Below, one piece after another: positions 15,461-50,154 of a stretch of DNA of 64,000 nucleotides. The position numbers and the translations under genes were made by a program. The stretch lies in IMG/VR virus record IMGVR_UViG_3300042197_002243; one strand, 5' to 3'. Origin of the DNA: a virus. Every line of letters starts with the position of its first letter. Position 1 is the first letter of the stretch. The notes under the pieces are model-generated. The model worked only from the letters and a program-made list of their open reading frames with translations, was not told the DNA's origin and did no database searches.

Positions 15461-15496
15461 TTTATTTATCATAACATTGTCAGGAAATCCTGTCAA
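15461..15496 (-). promoter_or_regulatory. psbA sigma70 promoter with adjacent late-promoter-like ATAAATA
   Basis: TTGACA-17bp-TATGAT followed by AAATAAA. Confidence 0.75.
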
Positions 15497-16194
15497 GAGC
15501 CAATCATGTGTTCTTTGAGTTCGTTGATTTGCCCCTGCTGATGCTTGATACATTCTATCAGAAGGCCGATTAAACCGTTGTAGTTTACAACCTTGTGGGA
15601 TCCCATGTTGTTTACAAGTTCTGGCAATACCTTTTCAACGTCTTGTGCGATAACACCAACAGATGCCTTTTCGTTTTCAATCCAATTAAATGTAACACCA
15701 TTAATCTCAAATAACTTGCTGATTGGATTTTCTATGGTTTGTATATTTGTTTTTAAATTAATATCCGATGATGAGTTGAAATCGGTTGCGGTTATAATTC
15801 CAGAAACTTTAACATTTCCTGTAACATCCAATGCTGATGTTGGTGCTGTTGATTTAATTCCAACACTTGATGTTGTAGTAATACCTGTTTCACCTGTGGT
15901 CCACTGAGAAGAAGTTCCTCCTCCGCCACTAGCAGTTGCACTAATTGTGGCAATCCCAGAAAATTGAGTGATAGTAACATTTGCACCAGCATTCAATGAA
16001 GTAATGACACCGGTTAATGATGAACCAGAACCAAAGAACCTAGATGCAGTAACTACACCAGAAGCATTGACCCCAGTTGGAGCAATATTACCGAATGTAA
16101 TTGTTTGATTTGATGTAGTTCCCACACCAACAAATACATTATCAACAACCGTAACTAGGCGACCAAACTGCCCAAGTTCTCTATTATTAGCCAT
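15493..16194 (-). CDS. Short tail-fibre-like protein with C-terminal intramolecular chaperone (peptidase S74)
   Basis: G/T/S-rich fibre repeats; SSDINLKTNI, GVIAQDVEKVLPELV and VNYNGLIGLLIE motifs. Confidence 0.85.
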   Translation of the reverse strand: MANNRELGQFGRLVTVVDNVFVGVGTTSNQTITFGNIAPTGVNASGVVTASRFFGSGSSLTGVITSLNAGANVTITQFSGIATISATASGGGGTSSQWTTGETGITTTSSVGIKSTAPTSALDVTGNVKVSGIITATDFNSSSDINLKTNIQTIENPISKLFEINGVTFNWIENEKASVGVIAQDVEKVLPELVNNMGSHKVVNYNGLIGLLIECIKHQQGQINELKEHMIGS

Positions 16195-16255: not shown

Positions 16256-16447
16256 ATGCCAAGAGAGTGGAATACTCCAATTCGAGAACCTTGGAATCCT
16301 GTCATTAAAAAGTGTCTTGATGCAATTGATGAGCACATCAAGAACTACACAAAAACAGGTGATGAGTGGCACTTATCACAAGCAGAAATATTAAGAAAGT
16401 ATGTAAAAGACTTGAAGGTTTGGATTCATAAGCAAGAAGGACGTTAA
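16256..16447 (+). CDS. Conserved cyanophage hypothetical protein
   Basis: PREWNTP.REPWN motif; late promoter upstream. Confidence 0.7.
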   Translation: MPREWNTPIREPWNPVIKKCLDAIDEHIKNYTKTGDEWHLSQAEILRKYVKDLKVWIHKQEGR

Positions 16448-16902
16448 GACATCCAGAGTTTTCCTTCTGCTTTTCTTCTACGAGCAAGACCCGCTTCTAC
16501 GTTTGAACCAGGATTACGGTAAAGATATAATGCATCAGGAACTTTAACCCACTCTTTGTTTTTAAGAACCTTGGTTATGGTATTGAAATTGGAAGAACCA
16601 TAAAAGGCCGCCCCCAAATTATAGGCAAAACTAAGAAGTGCTCCCTGTTGATTTTCATTCATTTCATTCCAATAAGGTATCTTAGATAAAGCAGGAATAA
16701 ACTCTTTCTTAATTTGATTCATTAAAAGGTCATCAGCAACCATTTGAGAAATTTTGTCACCAAGTTTAAATGGTTTTCCGTTGAAGTCTCTAGTGCTACC
16801 CCATCCTATGGTAATAGGTAGACCACCAGTAAGAGGATCTGGGTATGCTGATAAATGGCATCCTTCAAACTCCTTGATCAATTTAATACCAACTAACGGC
16901 AC
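16444..16902 (-). CDS. GH24 phage lysozyme domain (probably the -1 frame extension of the upstream peptidase)
   Basis: IKEFEG..L.AYPD, TIGWG, ALLSFAYNLG and GLARRR.AE motifs; GTG start has no SD and lies in a hairpin loop. Confidence 0.92.
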   Translation of the reverse strand: MPLVGIKLIKEFEGCHLSAYPDPLTGGLPITIGWGSTRDFNGKPFKLGDKISQMVADDLLMNQIKKEFIPALSKIPYWNEMNENQQGALLSFAYNLGAAFYGSSNFNTITKVLKNKEWVKVPDALYLYRNPGSNVEAGLARRRKAEGKLWMS

Positions 16903-16946
16903 ACTGTTAATTGGCGATGTTACTTTTTTGCGTCAAAAATTCTCCC
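16888..16946 (-). other. Programmed -1 ribosomal frameshift signal
   Basis: SD-like GGGAG (16942-16946), 12 nt, A_AAA_AAG (16923-16929), 7 nt, 10-bp hairpin (16888-16915). Confidence 0.8.
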
Positions 16947-17618
16947 CCACCCGTCATTACCTTTAGGACACCATCTACGAACAAGATCAGAACGCTTATA
17001 GATAGCACCCTTACCATTTGTTACAGGTCCAGTATAACCATCATTCAGGCTACCATACGGATCATTAACCACATAGTCTTCACCTTTCTTGCCGATGACT
17101 ACAACCATGTGCCCGCCAGTAGGAGCAGATAAAGAACCGCGATGAAGGATACCAATAACAACAGGTTTTCCAGCAGCAAGATTCTTATCAAGGTCATTAA
17201 AAGAAAGATTGTAACTAAAGTGTGACTTAATACCATAAGACGCAAGAACTTTGGTCTGAACTGTATGATCAGTTGTGTCACCAACTGCAAAGACTTTTTG
17301 AACGTAAGCATCATCTCCTTTAGGGCCTACTAAAGTTCCTGGTTTAAAGTATTCTAAACACATCGCACATGCAGATGAATTACAGGTTCTTTGAGCATCT
17401 CTGTAATTGTCTGTTTGAGGAAAAAACGGAACAGTTAAAATTCCTGGAACTTTTGGTGCTTCTACTTTGCTTCTAAAAATCTTTACCCAATTTGCATTAT
17501 CATCAAGCAAATCTGATGCTTTTACGAGAAGATCTTTTTCAAATTGCTCAACTGCCGCAACATGCTTTGGATTCTTTTCATCAAAATGCTTAAAGAAGTT
17601 ATGAAGATCGAATGTCAT
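16920..17618 (-). CDS. Peptidase C39-like cell-wall hydrolase
   Basis: L.VPFFPQTDN, TCNSSACAM (Cys), GHMVVVIG (His), VNDPYG (Asp); late promoter upstream. Confidence 0.85.
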   Translation of the reverse strand: MTFDLHNFFKHFDEKNPKHVAAVEQFEKDLLVKASDLLDDNANWVKIFRSKVEAPKVPGILTVPFFPQTDNYRDAQRTCNSSACAMCLEYFKPGTLVGPKGDDAYVQKVFAVGDTTDHTVQTKVLASYGIKSHFSYNLSFNDLDKNLAAGKPVVIGILHRGSLSAPTGGHMVVVIGKKGEDYVVNDPYGSLNDGYTGPVTNGKGAIYKRSDLVRRWCPKGNDGWGRIFDAKK

Positions 17619-17640
17619 TGACCTTGCCGAAACGCAAAGA

Positions 17641-17648
17641 TATTTATA
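17641..17648 (-). promoter_or_regulatory. T4-type late promoter
   Basis: TATAAATA about 22 nt upstream of the peptidase ATG, just past the prx terminator hairpin. Confidence 0.75.
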
Positions 17649-17678
17649 AAAAAAGCGCCCTTTCGGACGCTTCATATT

Positions 17679-18627: not shown

Positions 18628-19506
18628 TCAGAACTTGAATCCAAGACCAGTGGTAAACACAGGCGAGTAAGTTCCGTTGGTAGCACCATAGCTATTAGCG
18701 GCATTGGTGGTAGGGAACTTCAGGTCAGCAAAACCAACCAGTGAGTTGGTCAGACGACCTTCAACACCAAGAGCAAGCACGAATTGACCACGATTACCAA
18801 CAGCGGACTGATAGTTAGCAGCAGTATCATTCACGAAAGGAATCTGATAACCAGCACCAGCATACACATTGGCACGGCTCACGCCAGACTTAGCACGGGA
18901 AACGCTCCAATCATAGGAAACAAGGGCGCCGCCGCCTGCACCTACCTGACCAGCAGGAGTGCCTACAAAGTTGGCATAAGGACGAACCGAAACAGCATTT
19001 TGGTTTTTGAAGTTCTTCACAGCATAACGTGCCTGAACCGTAGCACCAGCAACAGTGCGTTGAGCACCATAACCATTACCAGCAACACCTTGCTGATTGA
19101 GAAGCACACCAGCTCCCAGATAGTTACCAACGCCCTGTGCCTTTTGGGCAGCGGCAAGTTCAAGAGCACTTACACGAGTATTGGTAGCAGCAATCTCTTT
19201 GGAAAACTCTGCACGAAGAGCAGCAGCAAGAGCAGCATCAGCAGCACTTTGATACTCACTAATGCGATCAAGACAAGCATTAGTCAGAGCAGCAAGTTCT
19301 GCACGAGTCGCAGGTTGGCCAGGACGGAAGGTGCCATTAGGGTAACCAGCAACACAACCGTAACGCTCTACCAGATTAGTGATTGCTTGATAAGACCACT
19401 GGGTAGGTTGAACATCACGCAGTTGTGAAACACTGGTGACTTGTGCCATGGCAGGAGCAACTGCAGTAGTAGCAACAGTGGCGGCGGCAATAAAAGAACG
19501 AATCAT
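18628..19506 (-). CDS. SLH-domain outer-membrane protein (cyanobacterial porin N-terminus plus short beta-barrel)
   Basis: Signal peptide; DVQPT.WSYQAI..LVERYGCVAGYP.GTFRP...TR.E; C-terminal GLGFKF. Confidence 0.8.
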   Translation of the reverse strand: MIRSFIAAATVATTAVAPAMAQVTSVSQLRDVQPTQWSYQAITNLVERYGCVAGYPNGTFRPGQPATRAELAALTNACLDRISEYQSAADAALAAALRAEFSKEIAATNTRVSALELAAAQKAQGVGNYLGAGVLLNQQGVAGNGYGAQRTVAGATVQARYAVKNFKNQNAVSVRPYANFVGTPAGQVGAGGGALVSYDWSVSRAKSGVSRANVYAGAGYQIPFVNDTAANYQSAVGNRGQFVLALGVEGRLTNSLVGFADLKFPTTNAANSYGATNGTYSPVFTTGLGFKF

Positions 19507-34066: not shown

Positions 34067-34097
34067 AAGTGTTTAAATTCTAAACGTATTTATTACA

Positions 34098-34170
34098 TGC
34101 TCCTTGAGGGGATTGAACCCACCTTAGCCGAATTATGAGTTCGGTGCATTCACCAGATTGCTAAAGGAGC
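34098..34170 (-). tRNA. tRNA with CAU anticodon (Met or Ile2)
   Basis: Cloverleaf; anticodon arm CCGAA-CTCATAA-TTCGG. Confidence 0.9.
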
Positions 34171-34174
34171 ATTT

Positions 34175-34255
34175 TGGGCGAGGGTGTCTGACCACGATAA
34201 TCTACGATTCAGCAGAGGGGACCCTTCGTTTAATACAACGTTCCTTGTTGCACCC
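34175..34255 (-). ncRNA. Unidentified ~80-nt structured RNA between two tRNAs
   Basis: GC-rich; terminal GGGTG/CGCCC stem plus internal hairpins; no canonical cloverleaf. Confidence 0.5.
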
Positions 34256-34257
34256 AA

Positions 34258-34329
34258 TAGGAACACTGGGAGTTGAACCCAGACTAACCCGTTATAAGCA
34301 GGCCGCTCTAACCATTAAGCTATGCTCCC
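34258..34329 (-). tRNA. tRNA-Ile(UAU)
   Basis: Cloverleaf; anticodon loop CTTATAA. Confidence 0.9.
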
Positions 34330-34330
34330 A

Positions 34331-34552
34331 CTACGATCCCTCTTCGTGATCGGTGTGGATGCGTATGATTTCTGAATCCACTTTAGATTCTTCAAATATT
34401 TCTATGACTTCCTTATAAGGAACCATAACCGCGTTTCCATGCTCGCTTGTTATGATAAACGATTCTCCATTTTCTACTCTAGACATTAGATTATCAAAAT
34501 CTGCTTGAAAATCTTCTACTGTGTACGTTTGAAGTTCGTGATTCATTTTCAT
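34331..34552 (-). CDS. Phd/YefM antitoxin-like protein
   Basis: TVEDFQADFDNLMSRVENGESFIITSEHGNAVMVPY fits the Phd N-terminal pattern. Confidence 0.6.
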   Translation of the reverse strand: MKMNHELQTYTVEDFQADFDNLMSRVENGESFIITSEHGNAVMVPYKEVIEIFEESKVDSEIIRIHTDHEEGS

Positions 34553-34565
34553 AAGTAAATTAATA

Positions 34566-34637
34566 TCGGGGCGACAGGGATCGAACCTGTGACCTCTGGT
34601 TCCCAAAACCAGCATTCTACCGCTGAACTACGCCCCG
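34566..34637 (-). tRNA. tRNA-Pro(UGG)
   Basis: Cloverleaf; anticodon loop TTTGGGA. Confidence 0.95.
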
Positions 34638-34661
34638 TTGTCTTTTCTTGAATGTACGACC

Positions 34662-34690
34662 ATTATACCCAAGATAGGGACCATTGTCAA
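34662..34690 (-). promoter_or_regulatory. Consensus sigma70 promoter for the tRNA-Pro/Ile/CAU cluster
   Basis: TTGACA-17bp-TATAAT. Confidence 0.85.
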
Positions 34691-34734
34691 CAGATAGCAA
34701 AGTGTTCCCAGGAATATATCATTATTTAACAAAG

Positions 34735-34938
34735 TTACGACAAGGTGATTTTGAGCCATGGCAGTAATGGTGGAATGACACCTATGAGTCTGAGGAGACC
34801 TTCAGCAAATAAAGCAAGAACGACCCAACCAACACACATAGAAATAATTGCGGCATTGCGGTTGTGCTGACGAATTGCATCATCGATCATCTCTTGTACT
34901 TCAGACCGACTTACAAGTTCATCTTGTTCTTGAATCAT
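34735..34938 (-). CDS. Small membrane protein
   Basis: EVQEMIDDAIR.HNRNA followed by a TM segment. Confidence 0.7.
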   Translation of the reverse strand: MIQEQDELVSRSEVQEMIDDAIRQHNRNAAIISMCVGWVVLALFAEGLLRLIGVIPPLLPWLKITLS

Positions 34939-35084
34939 TTTTCATCTCCAAGAAATTTTGCTAAGGGATCTCTTCTGGTTTTTATAATTTCAACTGCTCT
35001 TTTATAGAACATATTATCTGTATTACCAGAAGATTCAAAGGTTTCTTTGATCTTCACCCAATTATCATAGGTGTGTTGATCCAT
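34935..35084 (-). CDS. 49-aa hypothetical protein (MDQHTYDNWVKIKETFE...)
   Basis: ATGA coupling to the next ORF; own promoter (TTGACT...TATAGT) upstream; absent from the ORF track. Confidence 0.65.
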   Translation of the reverse strand: MDQHTYDNWVKIKETFESSGNTDNMFYKRAVEIIKTRRDPLAKFLGDEK

Positions 35085-35179
35085 GAGTTTGTAGTGATAA
35101 TACTACTATATACTAATCACTACAGTTCAAAAGTCAACCATTGTGTTCATTATGTAACACTGTTTAAGAAATTATTAAA

Positions 35180-36352
35180 TCACCAGAAATTTGTATAGGT
35201 ATCCTTAAACTCCATTTTTTGTCCCATCATACCAGCATGAACTTGAAGATAATCTTTATATCCAAAACATCCAATGTTGAAATATTCCCTTGAAGAGAAT
35301 TTTCTATCGTGCTGAAGAGCATCTTCATAATATTCTCGATTAGTAATATATGAAGTATTCATTAATTCTTGTGATCTTTTTACAACATCACTCCAAAATG
35401 AGGATTTGTATTTAGACCCATAACTGTAATGCCATGCAAGAGATAATTGATAGTTAAACATTTCTTTGTAATATAGTTGATTATATTTGACATAGTTTTC
35501 ATGCTTCCTGTCACCGATAAAAGAACAAATAAAATCCGCAAACATTGCGTAATAGTGTAATGATAAAGCTTGTAAAGGTTCTAAAAACATTAGTCGGTTT
35601 CCATTATAAGAACAAAAACGATTTTGAATCATTTTTTTACAATATTTTGGATCCCAAGATATGTGTTTTACATTTTCATATCCAATACTTTTTCTTGCAT
35701 CTTCAATACTTGTAAATTTTGAATTAAAAAGATATCCGTGTTTGATTAAGTTTCTATCTGGAAATGGAAGACCAAATTGCCAACCATCAATCGTCGCTAA
35801 ATGATGTGTGTATGGTTGACTACTGAAACATTCTTTAGAATAAACAAGTGCATTGTTCACCGTTTCAAAAATTGGTTTTCTATATTCATCTCCTCTATCC
35901 CATCCAGAACAACAAATTAAGTGATCATAAGAAATATCATTAATAATAATTTCTTCCAAATCTAAATTGACATCATATTTTTCAATTTTAAAAGCATGAT
36001 ATTTTACTCCACGTTTTTCTAAAATGTCATGAATAAATTTATTAAATGTGCCGCTTTCAAAATGAAAAGCTACAAAGTTACCATTAAAATAATGTCGGAA
36101 AGTATTTCCTATTCCCCATCCGTCAAATAATATACCATTTTTAAGTGAAACAATATTTTCATCTATTAAATCGCCTATTGAGATATTTAATGTTTCTTTA
36201 ATTATTCTTGCAATATGTGGAGTTGTAGATTCACCAACGTTTAAATGAGGTTTATTTGGATCAAAATATATTTCAACATCATAACCATTTTTAATACACA
36301 CAAGGGATGTAATAATTGCGGATGTCCCTTTACCTAAAATTGCTATTTTCAT
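35180..36352 (-). CDS. Tryptophan-halogenase-like flavin-dependent enzyme
   Basis: ILGKGTSA, VGEST.P, AFHF, GWQFGLP and GN...FLEPLQA motifs. Confidence 0.8.
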   Translation of the reverse strand: MKIAILGKGTSAIITSLVCIKNGYDVEIYFDPNKPHLNVGESTTPHIARIIKETLNISIGDLIDENIVSLKNGILFDGWGIGNTFRHYFNGNFVAFHFESGTFNKFIHDILEKRGVKYHAFKIEKYDVNLDLEEIIINDISYDHLICCSGWDRGDEYRKPIFETVNNALVYSKECFSSQPYTHHLATIDGWQFGLPFPDRNLIKHGYLFNSKFTSIEDARKSIGYENVKHISWDPKYCKKMIQNRFCSYNGNRLMFLEPLQALSLHYYAMFADFICSFIGDRKHENYVKYNQLYYKEMFNYQLSLAWHYSYGSKYKSSFWSDVVKRSQELMNTSYITNREYYEDALQHDRKFSSREYFNIGCFGYKDYLQVHAGMMGQKMEFKDTYTNFW

Positions 36353-36369
36353 TTGACACTACTTATAAA

Positions 36370-36454
36370 CGGAAGGGGTGGGATTCGAACCCACGGATGC
36401 TTGCACATCGCTAGTTTTCAAGACTAGAGCCTTCAACCACTCGACCACCCTTCC
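36370..36454 (-). tRNA. tRNA-Ser(UGA)
   Basis: Cloverleaf with long variable arm; anticodon loop CTTGAAA. Confidence 0.95.
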
Positions 36455-36459
36455 AATAT

Positions 36460-36708
36460 TTAACGAACGTCAAATTCGAGTTTACGAACTTTACGCTGTC
36501 TCCTTGCCTCCTGAAAGGCAAGATCTTGGGATGAAAGAATACCAGATTGTTTTTTCTGGTTATGTGATTCTACCACAACTATTTGAGATAAGTCAATCGC
36601 AGAGATCTTGTCCTCTTTCACTGACATCTGATTTGGGCAACCGCAAACCTGTAGTTTGGATGTACCAATCAATTCTTTGTTGCAGCATTTGCATCTGACT
36701 ACTAACAT
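36460..36708 (-). CDS. Conserved cyanophage Cys-rich hypothetical protein
   Basis: C..C, CGCPN and C-terminal RRQRKVRKLEF motifs. Confidence 0.75.
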   Translation of the reverse strand: MLVVRCKCCNKELIGTSKLQVCGCPNQMSVKEDKISAIDLSQIVVVESHNQKKQSGILSSQDLAFQEARRQRKVRKLEFDVR

Positions 36709-36804
36709 GATCCAATTTACCTTTAATCTCTTCTAATTCTTCGTGAATATCTTGATGATGAAACCTCAAGGGTCCCTGAATAAGTTTACTAATAGTTTTC
36801 TTTT

Positions 36805-37242
36805 TCATTCTTTTAAAAAGGAACGTAACATCCAAACATTTTTACCATGTGCTTCCATTAAATCTTGAACTAGATTTGCTGTAGCATATTGTCTTTGTTT
36901 TTCCGACTCTTCTGAAATTTTAGCACACATTTCACAAAATGTCTTGTTATCAGCAAGCAATTGACTGACCATCGATTCTGCAGTTGATGAAGTTTTTGCC
37001 TCAGGAATTTCCGAAGTTTCAACAACCATACTAATTGGACCTATGGCTTTCATGCGAAGATAACGCATATGTTCTGTAAGGCGATCAATTTCCTCAAACA
37101 TTGTTTCATATTGCTTACCAAATATTTTATGTAGTTGATAGAAATCAGATCCCACCACGTTCCAATGATAAACCCAGGTTTTCTGAAATAAACAGAAAAG
37201 ACTTGTTTGTGCTTTATGAAGAAGTTCGTATAACTCGTCCAT
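36805..37242 (-). CDS. dps: Dps/ferritin-like protein
   Basis: YHWNVVG.DF.QLH..F..QY, D.L.E..R and H.K..WML motifs. Confidence 0.92.
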   Translation of the reverse strand: MDELYELLHKAQTSLFCLFQKTWVYHWNVVGSDFYQLHKIFGKQYETMFEEIDRLTEHMRYLRMKAIGPISMVVETSEIPEAKTSSTAESMVSQLLADNKTFCEMCAKISEESEKQRQYATANLVQDLMEAHGKNVWMLRSFLKE

Positions 37243-37265
37243 TATCTTTTTGAAGTATTTATAAG

Positions 37266-37338
37266 TGGGAGCAGAGGGATTCGAACCCCCGACATTCTGC
37301 GTGTAAAGCAGACGCTGCTACCGCTGAGCTATGCTCCC
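37266..37338 (-). tRNA. tRNA-Val(UAC)
   Basis: Cloverleaf; anticodon loop TTTACAC. Confidence 0.95.
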
Positions 37339-37749
37339 ATATTTTGGATGATTTCCATTTTTATATCTTCCACCTTTACTTTTATTTGGAGGTTGAGTTT
37401 TTAGAGAATGACAATTTGGACATAAAACTTGCAAATTGTCTGGCGAATGATTAAATGGATTATCATCAATATGATCAATTTCAAGTGGAACTTTTCCTGT
37501 ATGAATATTAGTTCCAAACCACCCACATTTAGAGCACTTATGTTGTGCTGCTTCCATGAGGTAATTTCTTACATATTGAGATAAATTGTAAGAAGAACCT
37601 CCTGAAACTAAACCTTGTTTCCATTCAGCAATATACTGATTTCTAAAATGTTCTTGTTGGCACTTATTATTACAATACTTACCTCTTTTATGGTAAGGAT
37701 TATATTCAAATACCTTAGAGCAATTTAGACAGATCGCAGTTTGTTTCAT
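37318..37749 (-). CDS. HNH endonuclease in the tRNA cluster
   Basis: CSKCG, LEIDHID.N..N..P.NLQVLCPNCH; 3' end runs into tRNA-Val. Confidence 0.9.
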   Translation of the reverse strand: MKQTAICLNCSKVFEYNPYHKRGKYCNNKCQQEHFRNQYIAEWKQGLVSGGSSYNLSQYVRNYLMEAAQHKCSKCGWFGTNIHTGKVPLEIDHIDDNPFNHSPDNLQVLCPNCHSLKTQPPNKSKGGRYKNGNHPKYGSIAQR

Positions 37750-37753
37750 ATAT

Positions 37754-37792
37754 TTGGTAGAATACTTTTTTATTTATAAGGTATTCTACCAA
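37754..37792 (-). promoter_or_regulatory. 12-bp inverted repeat with a late promoter in its loop
   Basis: TTGGTAGAATAC / GTATTCTACCAA enclosing TATAAATA (37771-37778), 4 nt from the HNH ATG. Confidence 0.8.
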
Positions 37793-37864
37793 CTCCCCCG
37801 GCAAGATTCGAACTTGCGACCCATTGATTAACAGTCAACTGCGCTACCGCTGCGCCACAGGGGA
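37793..37864 (-). tRNA. tRNA-Asn(GUU)
   Basis: Cloverleaf; anticodon loop CTGTTAA. Confidence 0.95.
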
Positions 37865-37871
37865 ATTTAGG

Positions 37872-37942
37872 AGCGGGTAACCGGGTTCGAACCGGTGATT
37901 CCAACTTGGAAGGATGGCGTGTTACCGCTACACCATACCCGC
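37872..37942 (-). tRNA. tRNA-Gly(UCC)
   Basis: Cloverleaf; anticodon loop CTTCCAA. Confidence 0.95.
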
Positions 37943-37952
37943 TTATGAGACA

Positions 37953-37981
37953 ATTATAGAGTAATTGAGTATAATTGTCAA
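37953..37981 (-). promoter_or_regulatory. Consensus sigma70 promoter for tRNA-Gly/Asn
   Basis: TTGACA-17bp-TATAAT. Confidence 0.85.
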
Positions 37982-38055
37982 CAGGTCCAGCAGGACTCGA
38001 ACCTGCGACACACAGCTTAGAAGGCTGTTGTTCTATCCATCTGAACTATGGACCC
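37982..38055 (-). tRNA. tRNA-Arg(UCU)
   Basis: Cloverleaf; anticodon loop CTTCTAA. Confidence 0.95.
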
Positions 38056-50039: not shown

Positions 50040-50057
50040 TCGTTTTTGAAATATTTA

Positions 50058-50130
50058 TGGAGATAAGGAGACTCGAACTCCTGACATCCTGCTTGCAAAG
50101 CAGGCGCTCTACCAACTGAGCTATATCCCC
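50058..50130 (-). tRNA. tRNA-Ala(UGC)
   Basis: Cloverleaf; anticodon loop TTTGCAA; G3:U70 pair. Confidence 0.95.
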
Positions 50131-50154
50131 AGGAAACCCCGAAGGGTAATTTAT

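What the first reader, a model, noticed from the sequence alone, without database searches (positions are those of the whole stretch)
16444..17648. Programmed -1 frameshift would fuse a C39-like peptidase to a lysozyme: two cell-wall hydrolases from one late gene
Seen: the peptidase ends GAC GCA AAA AAG TAA, so the slippery heptamer A_AAA_AAG (16923-16929) sits directly before the stop. An SD-like GGGAG lies 12 nt upstream (16942-16946). After a 7-nt spacer comes a 10-bp hairpin GCCAAUUAAC-AGUGUGCC-GUUAGUUGGU (16888-16915). The -1 frame reads K-K-V-T-S-P-I-N-S-V-P-L-V-G straight into the GH24 lysozyme ORF, whose GTG start has no SD and lies in the hairpin loop. Established: SD + A_AAA_AAG + hairpin is the architecture of the E. 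coli dnaX and IS3-family -1 frameshifts; known phage frameshifts are mostly in tail chaperone and structural genes. Inference: one late transcript (TATAAATA at 17641) yields a 232-aa peptidase and a ~391-aa peptidase-lysozyme fusion at a set ratio. I do not know of this being described for a cyanophage lysin.
Basis: partly seen in the sequence, partly recalled or inferred. Interest (0 to 1): 0.92.

Follow-up and report, generated by a model that had tools for sequence, protein, structure and literature searches.

The report
Frameshift-joined cyanophage peptidase-lysozyme lysin
In this T4-like cyanophage and dozens of relatives, including the lab phages S-PM2 and S-CAM7, ribosomes most likely slip back one base at the end of a peptidase gene, so one locus gives a short peptidase and a long peptidase-lysozyme; the mechanism is classical, the gene class is unusual, and no protein has yet been looked at.

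Summary
On the minus strand a 232-aa peptidase ORF ends GCA AAA AAG TAA. The GH24 lysozyme lies in the -1 frame, open from the heptamer, and a 10-bp hairpin starts 7 nt after it.

The heptamer alone is at chance level in this window (38 copies, 40.6 expected). Comparison carries the case:
- Of 68 distinct peptidase-to-lysozyme junctions, all put the lysozyme in -1.
- 64 have an in-phase slippery heptamer. The other 4 all have an ATG or GTG start.
- 26 have no start codon before the catalytic Glu.
- Downstream hairpins are strong (median -17 kcal/mol, z -4.3) and built from unrelated sequences. Two of three stem families show compensatory changes.
- Relatives encode the same protein as one in-frame ORF.

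Weak points:
- The window's own stem family shows no covariation.
- The upstream GGGAG is not conserved.
- This window has a GTG in the hairpin loop.
- Nothing is experimental.

New here: a dimer model passed its controls, with the interface in the N-terminal 50 residues shared by both products.

This scan has reported the same element on at least 8 other genomes. I found no paper describing it.

Verdict: a genuine -1 frameshift (about 0.85) and a new member of a known kind.

The parts
17652..17673 (-). Intrinsic-terminator-like hairpin plus T-run, ending the upstream peroxiredoxin gene
   Evidence: 9 pairs, 5 G-C, T-run. The same terminator-then-promoter layout is seen in many relatives.
17641..17648 (-). 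TATAAATA, a T4-type late-promoter-like box 22 nt (17640-17619) before the peptidase ATG (the box starts 30 nt upstream of it)
   Evidence: Sequence. NATAAATA sits at the same place after a terminator in roughly half of the unique upstream regions. Function is inferred.
17463..17618 (-). N-terminal helical domain (residues 1-52) of the peptidase ORF, a predicted homodimer interface. It is present in both the short and the long product.
   Evidence: Helices at 17-33, 35-38 and 43-48. The dimer model's interface is residues 3-52 only. It is 54% identical to the N-domain ORF in front of the lysozyme in other phages.
16923..17438 (-). C39-like papain-fold cysteine peptidase domain (residues 61-232) in the 0 frame
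   Evidence: Pfam PF13529 at 46.8 bits. Q68, C79, H170 and D186 are invariant in 45 sequences. Model pLDDT is 91.8. The best solved match is 3erv, a C39-like peptidase.
16942..16946 (-). GGGAG, a Shine-Dalgarno-like run 12 nt before the heptamer. It arises from the Gly-Arg codons GGG AGA.
   Evidence: It is present in 3 of 45 stop-adjacent junctions and 12 of 23 others. A possible extra stimulator here, but not a conserved part.
16923..16929 (-). Slippery heptamer A_AAA_AAG, in phase
   Evidence: It is kept in 59 of 68 distinct junctions, with C_CCA_AAG in 3, A_AAA_AAA in 1 and a T-run in 1. Codon usage alone would give NNA AAA AAG with probability 0.079.
16920..16922 (-). 0-frame stop TAA directly after the heptamer. 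The -1 codon here is GTA, which is not a start.
   Evidence: The stop is directly adjacent in 45 of 68 junctions, mostly TAG or TAA.
16888..16915 (-). Stimulatory hairpin: 10 bp, 8-nt loop, 7 nt after the heptamer
   Evidence: -11.5 kcal/mol, z = -3.09. In its stem family 98.8% of cells are paired and indels lie only in the loop, but there is no covariation.
16444..16929 (-). -1 frame reading from the slip site through a 7-codon linker into the GH24 lysozyme domain, to stop TAA 16446-16444
   Evidence: Pfam PF00959 at 79.4 bits. Solved lysozymes match: 9kbq at E = 1e-15 and P22 lysozyme 2anv at 4.5e-9. It matches positions 247-404 of the fused family phrog_3617.
16900..16902 (-). GTG in the hairpin loop, a possible but unconserved independent start
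   Evidence: The equivalent codon in the 8 stem-family relatives is GTG 4, GTT 2, GTA 1, ATT 1.

Best explanation
This is a programmed -1 ribosomal frameshift site at the end of a late-transcribed peptidase gene.

Most ribosomes stop at TAA 16922-16920 and release a 232-aa protein made of an N-terminal helical domain and a C39-like cysteine peptidase. A fraction is held over A_AAA_AAG by the hairpin 7 nt downstream and by the adjacent stop codon. The two lysyl-tRNAs re-pair one base back, and translation goes on in the -1 frame through a short linker into a GH24 lysozyme. The result is a 391-aa peptidase-lysozyme.

Shown here:
- the anatomy of the site
- its conservation
- the fixed -1 offset
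- the lack of a start codon in many relatives
- the existence of in-frame fused homologues

Inferred:
- that slippage happens, and at what rate
- that the transcript is late
- that both products act on the cell wall
- that the short and long forms pair through the shared N-terminal domain
For: 1. Split of one family. The two ORFs match positions 1-235 and 247-404 of phrog_3617, which is 405 positions long. ACG-2014f, L095 and L096 carry a single in-frame ORF. L106 does too, with an A7 run, and its sequence matches the predicted slip product of its nearest relatives.

2. Offset and heptamer. There are 68 distinct peptidase-to-lysozyme junctions from 94 loci, and all are -1. The heptamers are A_AAA_AAG 59, C_CCA_AAG 3, A_AAA_AAA 1 and an in-phase T-run in S-CAM7 1. 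The 4 junctions without a heptamer all have ATG or GTG at a TGA overlap.

3. Start codons. 26 of 68 have no ATG, GTG or TTG between the upstream -1-frame stop and the catalytic Glu. These include S-PM2 and S-CAM7, where annotators called only a 72-aa 'lysin'.

4. Linker. The stop-adjacent junctions show 12 different linker lengths, 32-116 nt. All keep the frame.

5. Hairpins. For the 45 stop-adjacent junctions the median is -17.0 kcal/mol and z -4.33, with 44 of 45 below z = -2. At least four unrelated stem sequences occupy the same place. Changes on both sides of a pair occur in 4 pairs of family 1 (reached by 2 of 500 shuffles; covariation score by 0 of 500) and 3 pairs of family 2 (11 of 500; score 1 of 500).

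6. Codon choice. NNA AAA AAG has probability 0.079 from the genes' own codon usage.

7. A paralogous gene uses G_GGA_AAG, a stop and a hairpin in front of the same lysozyme domain.

8. Dimer model of the 232-aa product. The score is 0.52 and the best of 3 controls is 0.00. That mark was reached by 20 of 30 proteins solved as pairs of one chain and by 1 of 23 solved as single chains. The runs share at least 78% of contacts and the partner pLDDT is at least 83. The interface is residues 3-52 only. The model supports binding; it does not show it.
Against: - No protein, ribosome-profiling or reporter data exist for any member.
- The window's own stem family shows no covariation: 0 pairs changed on both sides, and 500 of 500 shuffles do as well.
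- The window's hairpin is among the five weakest of the 45.
- This window has a GTG and a TTG in the -1 frame before the catalytic Glu, so independent initiation is possible here.
- The heptamer alone is at chance frequency.
- The related junctions are not independent samples, so the counts overstate the number of evolutionary events.
- The host's tRNA-Lys set, which governs slipperiness on AAG, is unknown. The 9 phage tRNAs in the window include none for Lys.
Confidence: 0.85

Rival explanations
1. The lysozyme of this phage is started on its own at GTG 16902, or at the TTG seven codons later. This could be instead of the frameshift or alongside it, and would give a free 152-aa lysozyme.
For: GTG 16902 and a TTG lie in the -1 frame before the catalytic Glu. 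Pfam's lysozyme profile begins at residue 10 of the GTG-started protein, so that protein would be complete. A subgroup of relatives, including S-SRM01, has a real ATG or GTG at an ATGA or GTGA overlap.
Against: There is no GGAG or GAGG before the GTG, which sits in the hairpin loop, while the TTG is further downstream, after the hairpin. The codon is not kept as a start in the 8 closest stem relatives. 26 of 68 junctions have no start at all yet keep the lysozyme intact. Independent starts would not force 12 different linker lengths to hold one frame.
Confidence: 0.15
2. RNA polymerase slips on the A6 run and adds one A to some transcripts. These then encode the fusion in frame, with no ribosomal slip.
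For: An extra A in the mRNA gives exactly the same protein. Runs of A or T are the shared feature of most sites, and S-CAM7 has a T8 run. One DNA contig (L106) carries A7.
Against: The run is held at exactly A6G and never lengthened. From my knowledge, efficient slippage by bacterial polymerases needs about 8-9 identical bases. C_CCA_AAG and G_GGA_AAG sites have only three A's. The codon phase, the adjacent stop and a strong hairpin 0-7 nt downstream in nearly all stop-adjacent junctions are ribosomal features with no role in transcription.
Confidence: 0.06
3. Sequencing or assembly error: the true genome has A7 and a plain in-frame fusion gene.
For: Homopolymers are error-prone. L106 has A7 and reads in frame.
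Against: 59 distinct junctions from many samples have A6G. Two S-PM2 records, AJ630128 and LN828717, agree over this stretch by blastn coverage and identity. I read the junction only in NC_006820. Non-homopolymer heptamers do the same job. The stop directly after the heptamer and the hairpin are conserved, which an error would not produce.
Confidence: 0.03

Closest known systems
E. coli dnaX tau/gamma -1 frameshift cassette (from my knowledge; the bare site gave 14-16% slippage in vitro, bioRxiv 10.1101/2025.10.02.679949)
   Same: The heptamer A_AAA_AAG is identical and a stem-loop follows a few nt downstream. In this window an SD-like GGGAG also lies upstream, at 12 nt against 10 nt in dnaX.
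   Different: In dnaX the shifted ribosome stops almost at once, so the frameshift product is the shorter one. Here it is the longer one and gains a whole enzyme. The SD-like element is not conserved among relatives. Rfam's frameshift families do not match.
IS3-family OrfA/OrfAB transposase frameshift, such as IS911 and IS150 (from my knowledge)
   Same: It uses A_AAA_AAG with a downstream structure and the 0-frame stop close by. The short product and the transframe fusion share an N-terminal part, and the fusion adds the catalytic domain.
   Different: The proteins are DNA-binding and transposase proteins of a mobile element, not cell-wall enzymes of a phage late gene.
Tail assembly chaperone G/GT frameshift of lambda and most tailed phages (G_GGA_AAG in lambda; from my knowledge; PRFect paper PMC10885494)
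   Same: It is a phage late gene with a fixed ratio of short and long forms that share an N-terminal domain and work together. The paralogous N-domain-to-lysozyme site found here uses the same G_GGA_AAG.
   Different: It belongs to a structural-assembly gene class. The lambda site has no strong downstream hairpin, whereas here the hairpins are strong (median -17 kcal/mol).
Two-product endolysins made by an in-frame internal start: CTP1L, CD27L, CS74L, Lys170, 2638A (PMC4777826)
   Same: One lysin locus gives two proteins that share a domain, and that domain drives oligomers. The homodimer model here is consistent with this.
   Different: Those use a second initiation site in the same frame, and the shared part is a C-terminal wall-binding domain. 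Here the shared part is N-terminal and the second product comes from a frame change.
In-frame peptidase-lysozyme endolysins of cyanophages: ACG-2014f 405-aa ORF, S-H34 'endolysin', phrog_3617, and the reversed order in S-CREM1, S-CBS2 and PSS2
   Same: The same three domains occur in the same order, and the linker resembles the predicted slip product.
   Different: They are a single ORF with no stop or slip, so they give one product only.
[quoted passage not shown] 1994), cited as a frameshift-containing lysin in PMC10885494
   Same: It may be an earlier case of a phage lysin spanning two reading frames.
   Different: I could not read it because the paper is not held. PMC4777826 describes it only as two overlapping genes. 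The host, enzymes and phage family are different.

Membership tests
-1 programmed ribosomal frameshift cassette (dnaX / IS3 type) | X_XXY_YYZ heptamer in the correct codon phase | tested here: met
   A_AAA_AAG at 16929-16923 with its first A in codon position 3. 64 of 68 junctions have one in phase.
-1 programmed ribosomal frameshift cassette (dnaX / IS3 type) | The -1 frame is open across the site and continues into a conserved coding region | tested here: met
   The frame is open from two codons before the heptamer to stop TAA 16446-16444. All 68 junctions are -1, and 12 linker lengths keep the frame.
-1 programmed ribosomal frameshift cassette (dnaX / IS3 type) | Stimulatory RNA structure about 5-9 nt downstream | tested here: met
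   A 10-bp hairpin after 7 nt, -11.5 kcal/mol, z = -3.09. Across the family the median is -17.0 and z -4.33.
-1 programmed ribosomal frameshift cassette (dnaX / IS3 type) | Covariation supporting the stem | tested here: inconclusive
   Met in stem families 1 and 2. Not met in the window's own family 3, which has 0 changes on both sides and 500 of 500 shuffles as high. Unrelated stems occupy the same position across families.
-1 programmed ribosomal frameshift cassette (dnaX / IS3 type) | Upstream SD-like stimulator (dnaX type only) | tested here: inconclusive
   GGGAG is present at 12 nt in this window, but in only 3 of 45 stop-adjacent junctions. The host's anti-SD was not examined.
-1 programmed ribosomal frameshift cassette (dnaX / IS3 type) | Transframe protein detected; efficiency depends on the heptamer and the stem | not testable with these tools
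   Needs mass spectrometry, a western blot or a reporter assay.
Peptidase_C39_2 / papain-fold cysteine peptidase | Profile match above the curated cut-off and a Gln-Cys-His-Asp set | tested here: met
   46.8 bits against 24. Q68, C79, H170 and D186 are invariant in 45 sequences. The best fold match is 3erv at E = 5e-6, TM 0.51/0.58. Substrate and bond cleaved were not tested.
GH24 phage lysozyme (PF00959) | Profile match above the cut-off and the catalytic Glu in the E-F-E-G motif | tested here: met
   79.4 bits against 22.3, covering the whole profile 1-125. It aligns with solved lysozyme 9kbq, KEFEG to KGFEG. The other catalytic residues were not checked.
T4-type late promoter | TATAAATA box at a fitting distance before the gene | tested here: inconclusive
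   The box is at 17648-17641, 22 nt before the ATG (it starts 30 nt upstream), after a terminator. NATAAATA is at the same place in about half of the relatives. Timing of expression is not testable here.

The most novel reading that the evidence does not exclude
The frameshift sets the ratio of two subunits of one dimeric lysin. The N-terminal 50-residue domain pairs a peptidase-only chain with a peptidase-lysozyme chain.

Cyanophage lineages reach the same two-enzyme assembly by three interchangeable genetic routes:
- an in-frame fusion
- a frameshift fusion
- two separate genes that each carry the pairing domain; some of these again have a G_GGA_AAG frameshift between the pairing domain and the lysozyme

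That would make recoding a tunable stoichiometry device for lysis enzymes.
Probability: 0.35. Interest if true: 0.72.

Novelty: new member of a known kind. Interest (0 to 1): 0.6.

Why it matters
- It corrects the annotation of reference cyanophage genomes. S-PM2 and S-CAM7 list a truncated 72-aa 'lysin', and in both the lysozyme domain has no start codon of its own.
- It affects a large family: about 1,900 peptidase homologues in the protein collection, all called as short ORFs among the best 120.
- It places programmed frameshifting in a lysis enzyme, whereas well-known phage cases are mostly structural genes.
- It gives a natural series of in-frame, frameshifted and separate-gene versions of one enzyme pair. 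That series could be used to ask why a fixed ratio of two wall hydrolases is useful.
- These phages kill abundant marine and freshwater Synechococcus, so how and when they lyse cells matters for carbon flow.

Tried and rejected
- The genome search 'own': no genome is held for this window, so I could not ask whether this is the phage's only lysozyme.
- Pattern scans allowing A5-A8 at the junction found nothing in metagenome contigs or viral contigs. The A7 assembly-error test for this exact phage is therefore open.
- Rfam at a permissive threshold gave only a chance sub-threshold snoRNA hit inside the lysozyme.
- Nine literature searches found no paper on this element. Shearman 1994 is not held.
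- Terminator reading of the hairpin: rejected, because no T-run follows it.
- Pseudogene reading of the lysozyme: rejected. It is 74-84% identical to 80 relatives, the -1 frame is uninterrupted from the slip site to the stop in this window, and the Pfam profile is matched over its whole length.
- GGGAG as a conserved stimulator: rejected for the family and kept only as a local possibility.
- I looked by eye for a pseudoknot between the loop and downstream sequence in this window and saw none. This was not computed.
Full report
**What is there.** The window is part of a T4-like cyanomyovirus. Around the finding it carries psbA, two hli genes, a peroxiredoxin and nine tRNAs. Its nearest cultured relatives are Synechococcus phages S-SRM01 and S-PM2, at 72-76% DNA identity.

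On the minus strand a 232-aa ORF (17618-16920) ends GAC GCA AAA AAG TAA. It consists of an unassigned N-terminal part of about 55 residues and a Peptidase_C39_2 domain. Directly behind it, in the -1 frame, lies a complete GH24 phage lysozyme.
- heptamer 16929-16923
- GGGAG 16946-16942, 12 nt upstream
- a 7-nt spacer
- a 10-bp hairpin at 16915-16888
- GTG 16902 in its loop
- TATAAATA at 17648-17641, after a terminator hairpin

The hairpin folds at -11.5 kcal/mol, z = -3.09. The heptamer by itself is unremarkable, with 38 copies in the window against 40.6 expected.

**The two ORFs are halves of one protein family.**
- PHROG 3617 is a 405-position profile. The peptidase fills positions 1-235 and the lysozyme fills 247-404.
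- ACG-2014f phages carry exactly such a single ORF, and S-H34 has a 422-aa 'endolysin'.
- S-CREM1, S-CBS2 and PSS2 have the reversed order in one ORF.
- Three uncultured contigs are in-frame fusions. One of them, L106, has an A7 run, and its sequence matches the predicted slip product of its nearest relatives.

**Comparative test of the frameshift.** I fetched 80 loci through the peptidase and 80 through the lysozyme from IMG/VR, plus cultured phages. I then classified every lysozyme by what lies upstream, without asking for a heptamer.
- There are 68 distinct peptidase-to-lysozyme junctions from 94 loci. In all of them the lysozyme is in the -1 frame.
- 59 carry A_AAA_AAG in phase, 3 carry C_CCA_AAG and 1 carries A_AAA_AAA. 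S-CAM7 carries an in-phase T-run (GTT TTT TTT) with its own hairpin.
- The remaining 4 have no heptamer, and all 4 have an ATG or GTG at a TGA overlap.
- 26 junctions have no ATG, GTG or TTG anywhere between the upstream -1-frame stop and the catalytic Glu.
- S-PM2 and S-CAM7 are among those 26. Their depositors annotated only a 72-aa 'lysin' from an internal ATG.
- In the 45 junctions where the stop follows the heptamer directly, the linker has 12 different lengths, 32-116 nt. All preserve the frame. That is expected for a translated linker, not for an intergenic spacer.
- From the genes' own codon usage, NNA AAA AAG would be chosen for [A/V]-K-K with probability 0.079.

**The hairpin.**
- In the 45 stop-adjacent junctions the sequence after the heptamer folds with a median of -17.0 kcal/mol and z = -4.33. 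44 of 45 lie below z = -2, and in nearly all the stem starts 0-7 nt after the heptamer.
- At least four unrelated stem sequences sit at this place. Insertions and deletions fall in the loops.
- Family 1 has 17 distinct sequences and 95.9% of cells paired. Four pairs changed on both sides, reached by 2 of 500 shuffles. The covariation score is 0.221 against 0.169, reached by 0 of 500.
- Family 2, which includes S-PM2, has 98.7% paired and three such pairs (11 of 500). Its score is 0.377 against 0.282 (1 of 500).
- Family 3, which includes this window, has 98.8% paired but only one-sided G-U-compatible changes. It shows no signal over shuffles.
- So the window's own stem rests on conservation and on analogy with the other families. 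It is among the five weakest.

**Other signals.**
- The upstream GGGAG comes from the codons GGG AGA of the conserved G-W-G-R motif. It is present in only 3 of 45 stop-adjacent junctions, but in 12 of 23 of the others.
- Those others are mostly a subgroup with AAG NNN TGA, an ATGA overlap and weak hairpins (median -4.6 kcal/mol). This hints at a trade-off between the 5' and 3' stimulators, but the subgroup is one clade, so I do not lean on it.
- The window's peptidase is closest to that subgroup, at 88-90% identity, which may explain why it has the GGGAG.
- A stop codon directly after a slippery run is a classical enhancer ('shifty stop', Weiss et al. 1987; from my knowledge, not checked here).
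- A terminator followed by NATAAATA lies 22-30 nt before the peptidase ATG in about half of the relatives. This fits late transcription.

**The proteins.**
- The peptidase model is confident (pLDDT 91.8). It matches C39-like papain-fold peptidases, 3erv first.
- Gln68, Cys79, His170 and Asp186 are invariant in 45 sequences down to 34% identity.
- The lysozyme matches solved GH24 lysozymes with the catalytic Glu motif aligned.

**The N-terminal domain.**
- In DSL-LC02, DSL-LC03 and many uncultured phages, the lysozyme is a separate gene that starts with its own copy of this domain. The copy is 54% identical.
- A dimer model of the 232-aa product passed. The score was 0.52 and the best of 3 controls 0.00. 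That mark was reached by 20 of 30 proteins solved as pairs of one chain and 1 of 23 solved as single chains. The runs share at least 78% of contacts and the partner pLDDT is at least 83.
- The interface lies entirely in residues 3-52. The model supports binding but does not show it.
- If the model is right, short and long products, or separate peptidase and lysozyme proteins in other lineages, could pair through this domain.

**Rivals.**
- Independent initiation at GTG 16902 is possible in this phage. The codon is unconserved, lacks an SD and sits in the loop. It cannot explain the family.
- Transcriptional slippage would give the same protein. It does not explain the fixed A6G, the non-homopolymer heptamers, the codon phase, the adjacent stop or the hairpin.
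- Assembly error is contradicted by 59 distinct A6G junctions and by non-homopolymer heptamers doing the same job. Two further S-PM2 records align over this stretch with the same coverage and identity, but I read the junction itself only in NC_006820. I could not inspect reads or other assemblies of this phage.

**What is known.**
- The mechanism is that of dnaX, IS3-family transposases and phage G/GT.
- Two-product endolysins are known, but they arise by in-frame internal initiation (PMC4777826).
- The PRFect paper lists lysins among genes known to frameshift, citing a 1994 lactococcal phage study that I could not read.
- Nine searches found nothing on cyanophage lysins.
- This scan's own notes report the same element on at least 8 other genomes. 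Those are AI notes, not independent evidence, but I re-derived their main claims here.

**Verdict.** A conserved -1 programmed frameshift is the best reading (0.85). It is a new member of a known kind of signal in an unusual gene class, and it is untested at the bench.

Noticed in passing
L102:932-1159 and lysozyme downstream; likewise L110-L115, L119, L121, L122, L124, L131, L139, L142: A second frameshift-like site sits in a paralogous layout. A 72-76-aa ORF made of the N-terminal domain alone ends ...CPHCGKPLGK with CTG GGA AAG TAA/TAG (G_GGA_AAG plus a stop). The lysozyme follows in -1 behind a GC-rich hairpin (13 distinct junctions, median -30.2 kcal/mol, z -3.6). A separate peptidase gene lies about 40-130 nt upstream. 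These lysozymes do have ATG codons just before the domain, so independent starts are possible.
   Followed up: partly
L002:1272-1343 (S-PM2) and L089:1880-1960 (S-CAM7): Both reference genomes annotate only a 72-aa 'lysin' from an internal ATG. The full lysozyme domain is open in the -1 frame from the end of the upstream peptidase ORF and has no start codon. S-CAM7 uses a T-run (GTT TTT TTT CCA CAG TAG) instead of A_AAA_AAG.
   Followed up: yes
L136 (about 60 nt before the lysozyme motif) and two similar junctions: These peptidases end ...QELPK with a C_CCA_AAG heptamer plus TAG or TAA and a GC-rich hairpin. It is a third heptamer doing the same job.
   Followed up: partly
L106, junction about 700 nt into the ORF: One contig has GTA AAA AAA GTA (A7), which makes a single in-frame peptidase-lysozyme ORF. 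Its sequence matches the predicted slip product of its nearest relatives. It is either a natural fused variant or a homopolymer miscall.
   Followed up: no
window 18628-19506 (-): A 292-aa ORF has a signal-peptide-like start and an SLH domain (43.8 bits), followed by a Gly/Ala-rich region. The neighbouring gene in DSL-LC03 is annotated as an autotransporter outer-membrane beta-barrel protein. This may be a phage-borne cyanobacterial porin-like protein.
   Followed up: no
window 34097-38055 and 50057-50131 (-): There are nine phage tRNA genes: Met, Ile-TAT, Pro, Ser, Val, Asn, Gly, Arg-TCT and Ala. None is for Lys, so slippage on AAA/AAG depends on host tRNA-Lys.
   Followed up: no
window 15493-16194 (-): A 233-aa ORF carries a Peptidase_S74 'chaperone of endosialidase' domain (58.8 bits). 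It is probably a self-cleaving tail-fibre-like protein and lies just downstream of the lysin locus.
   Followed up: no
window 16256-16447 (+): A 63-aa ORF on the opposite strand converges on the lysozyme's stop, sharing its last 4 bases (16444-16447). It has no Pfam match. Small opposite-strand ORFs sit at the same place in S-SRM01 and S-PM2.
   Followed up: no
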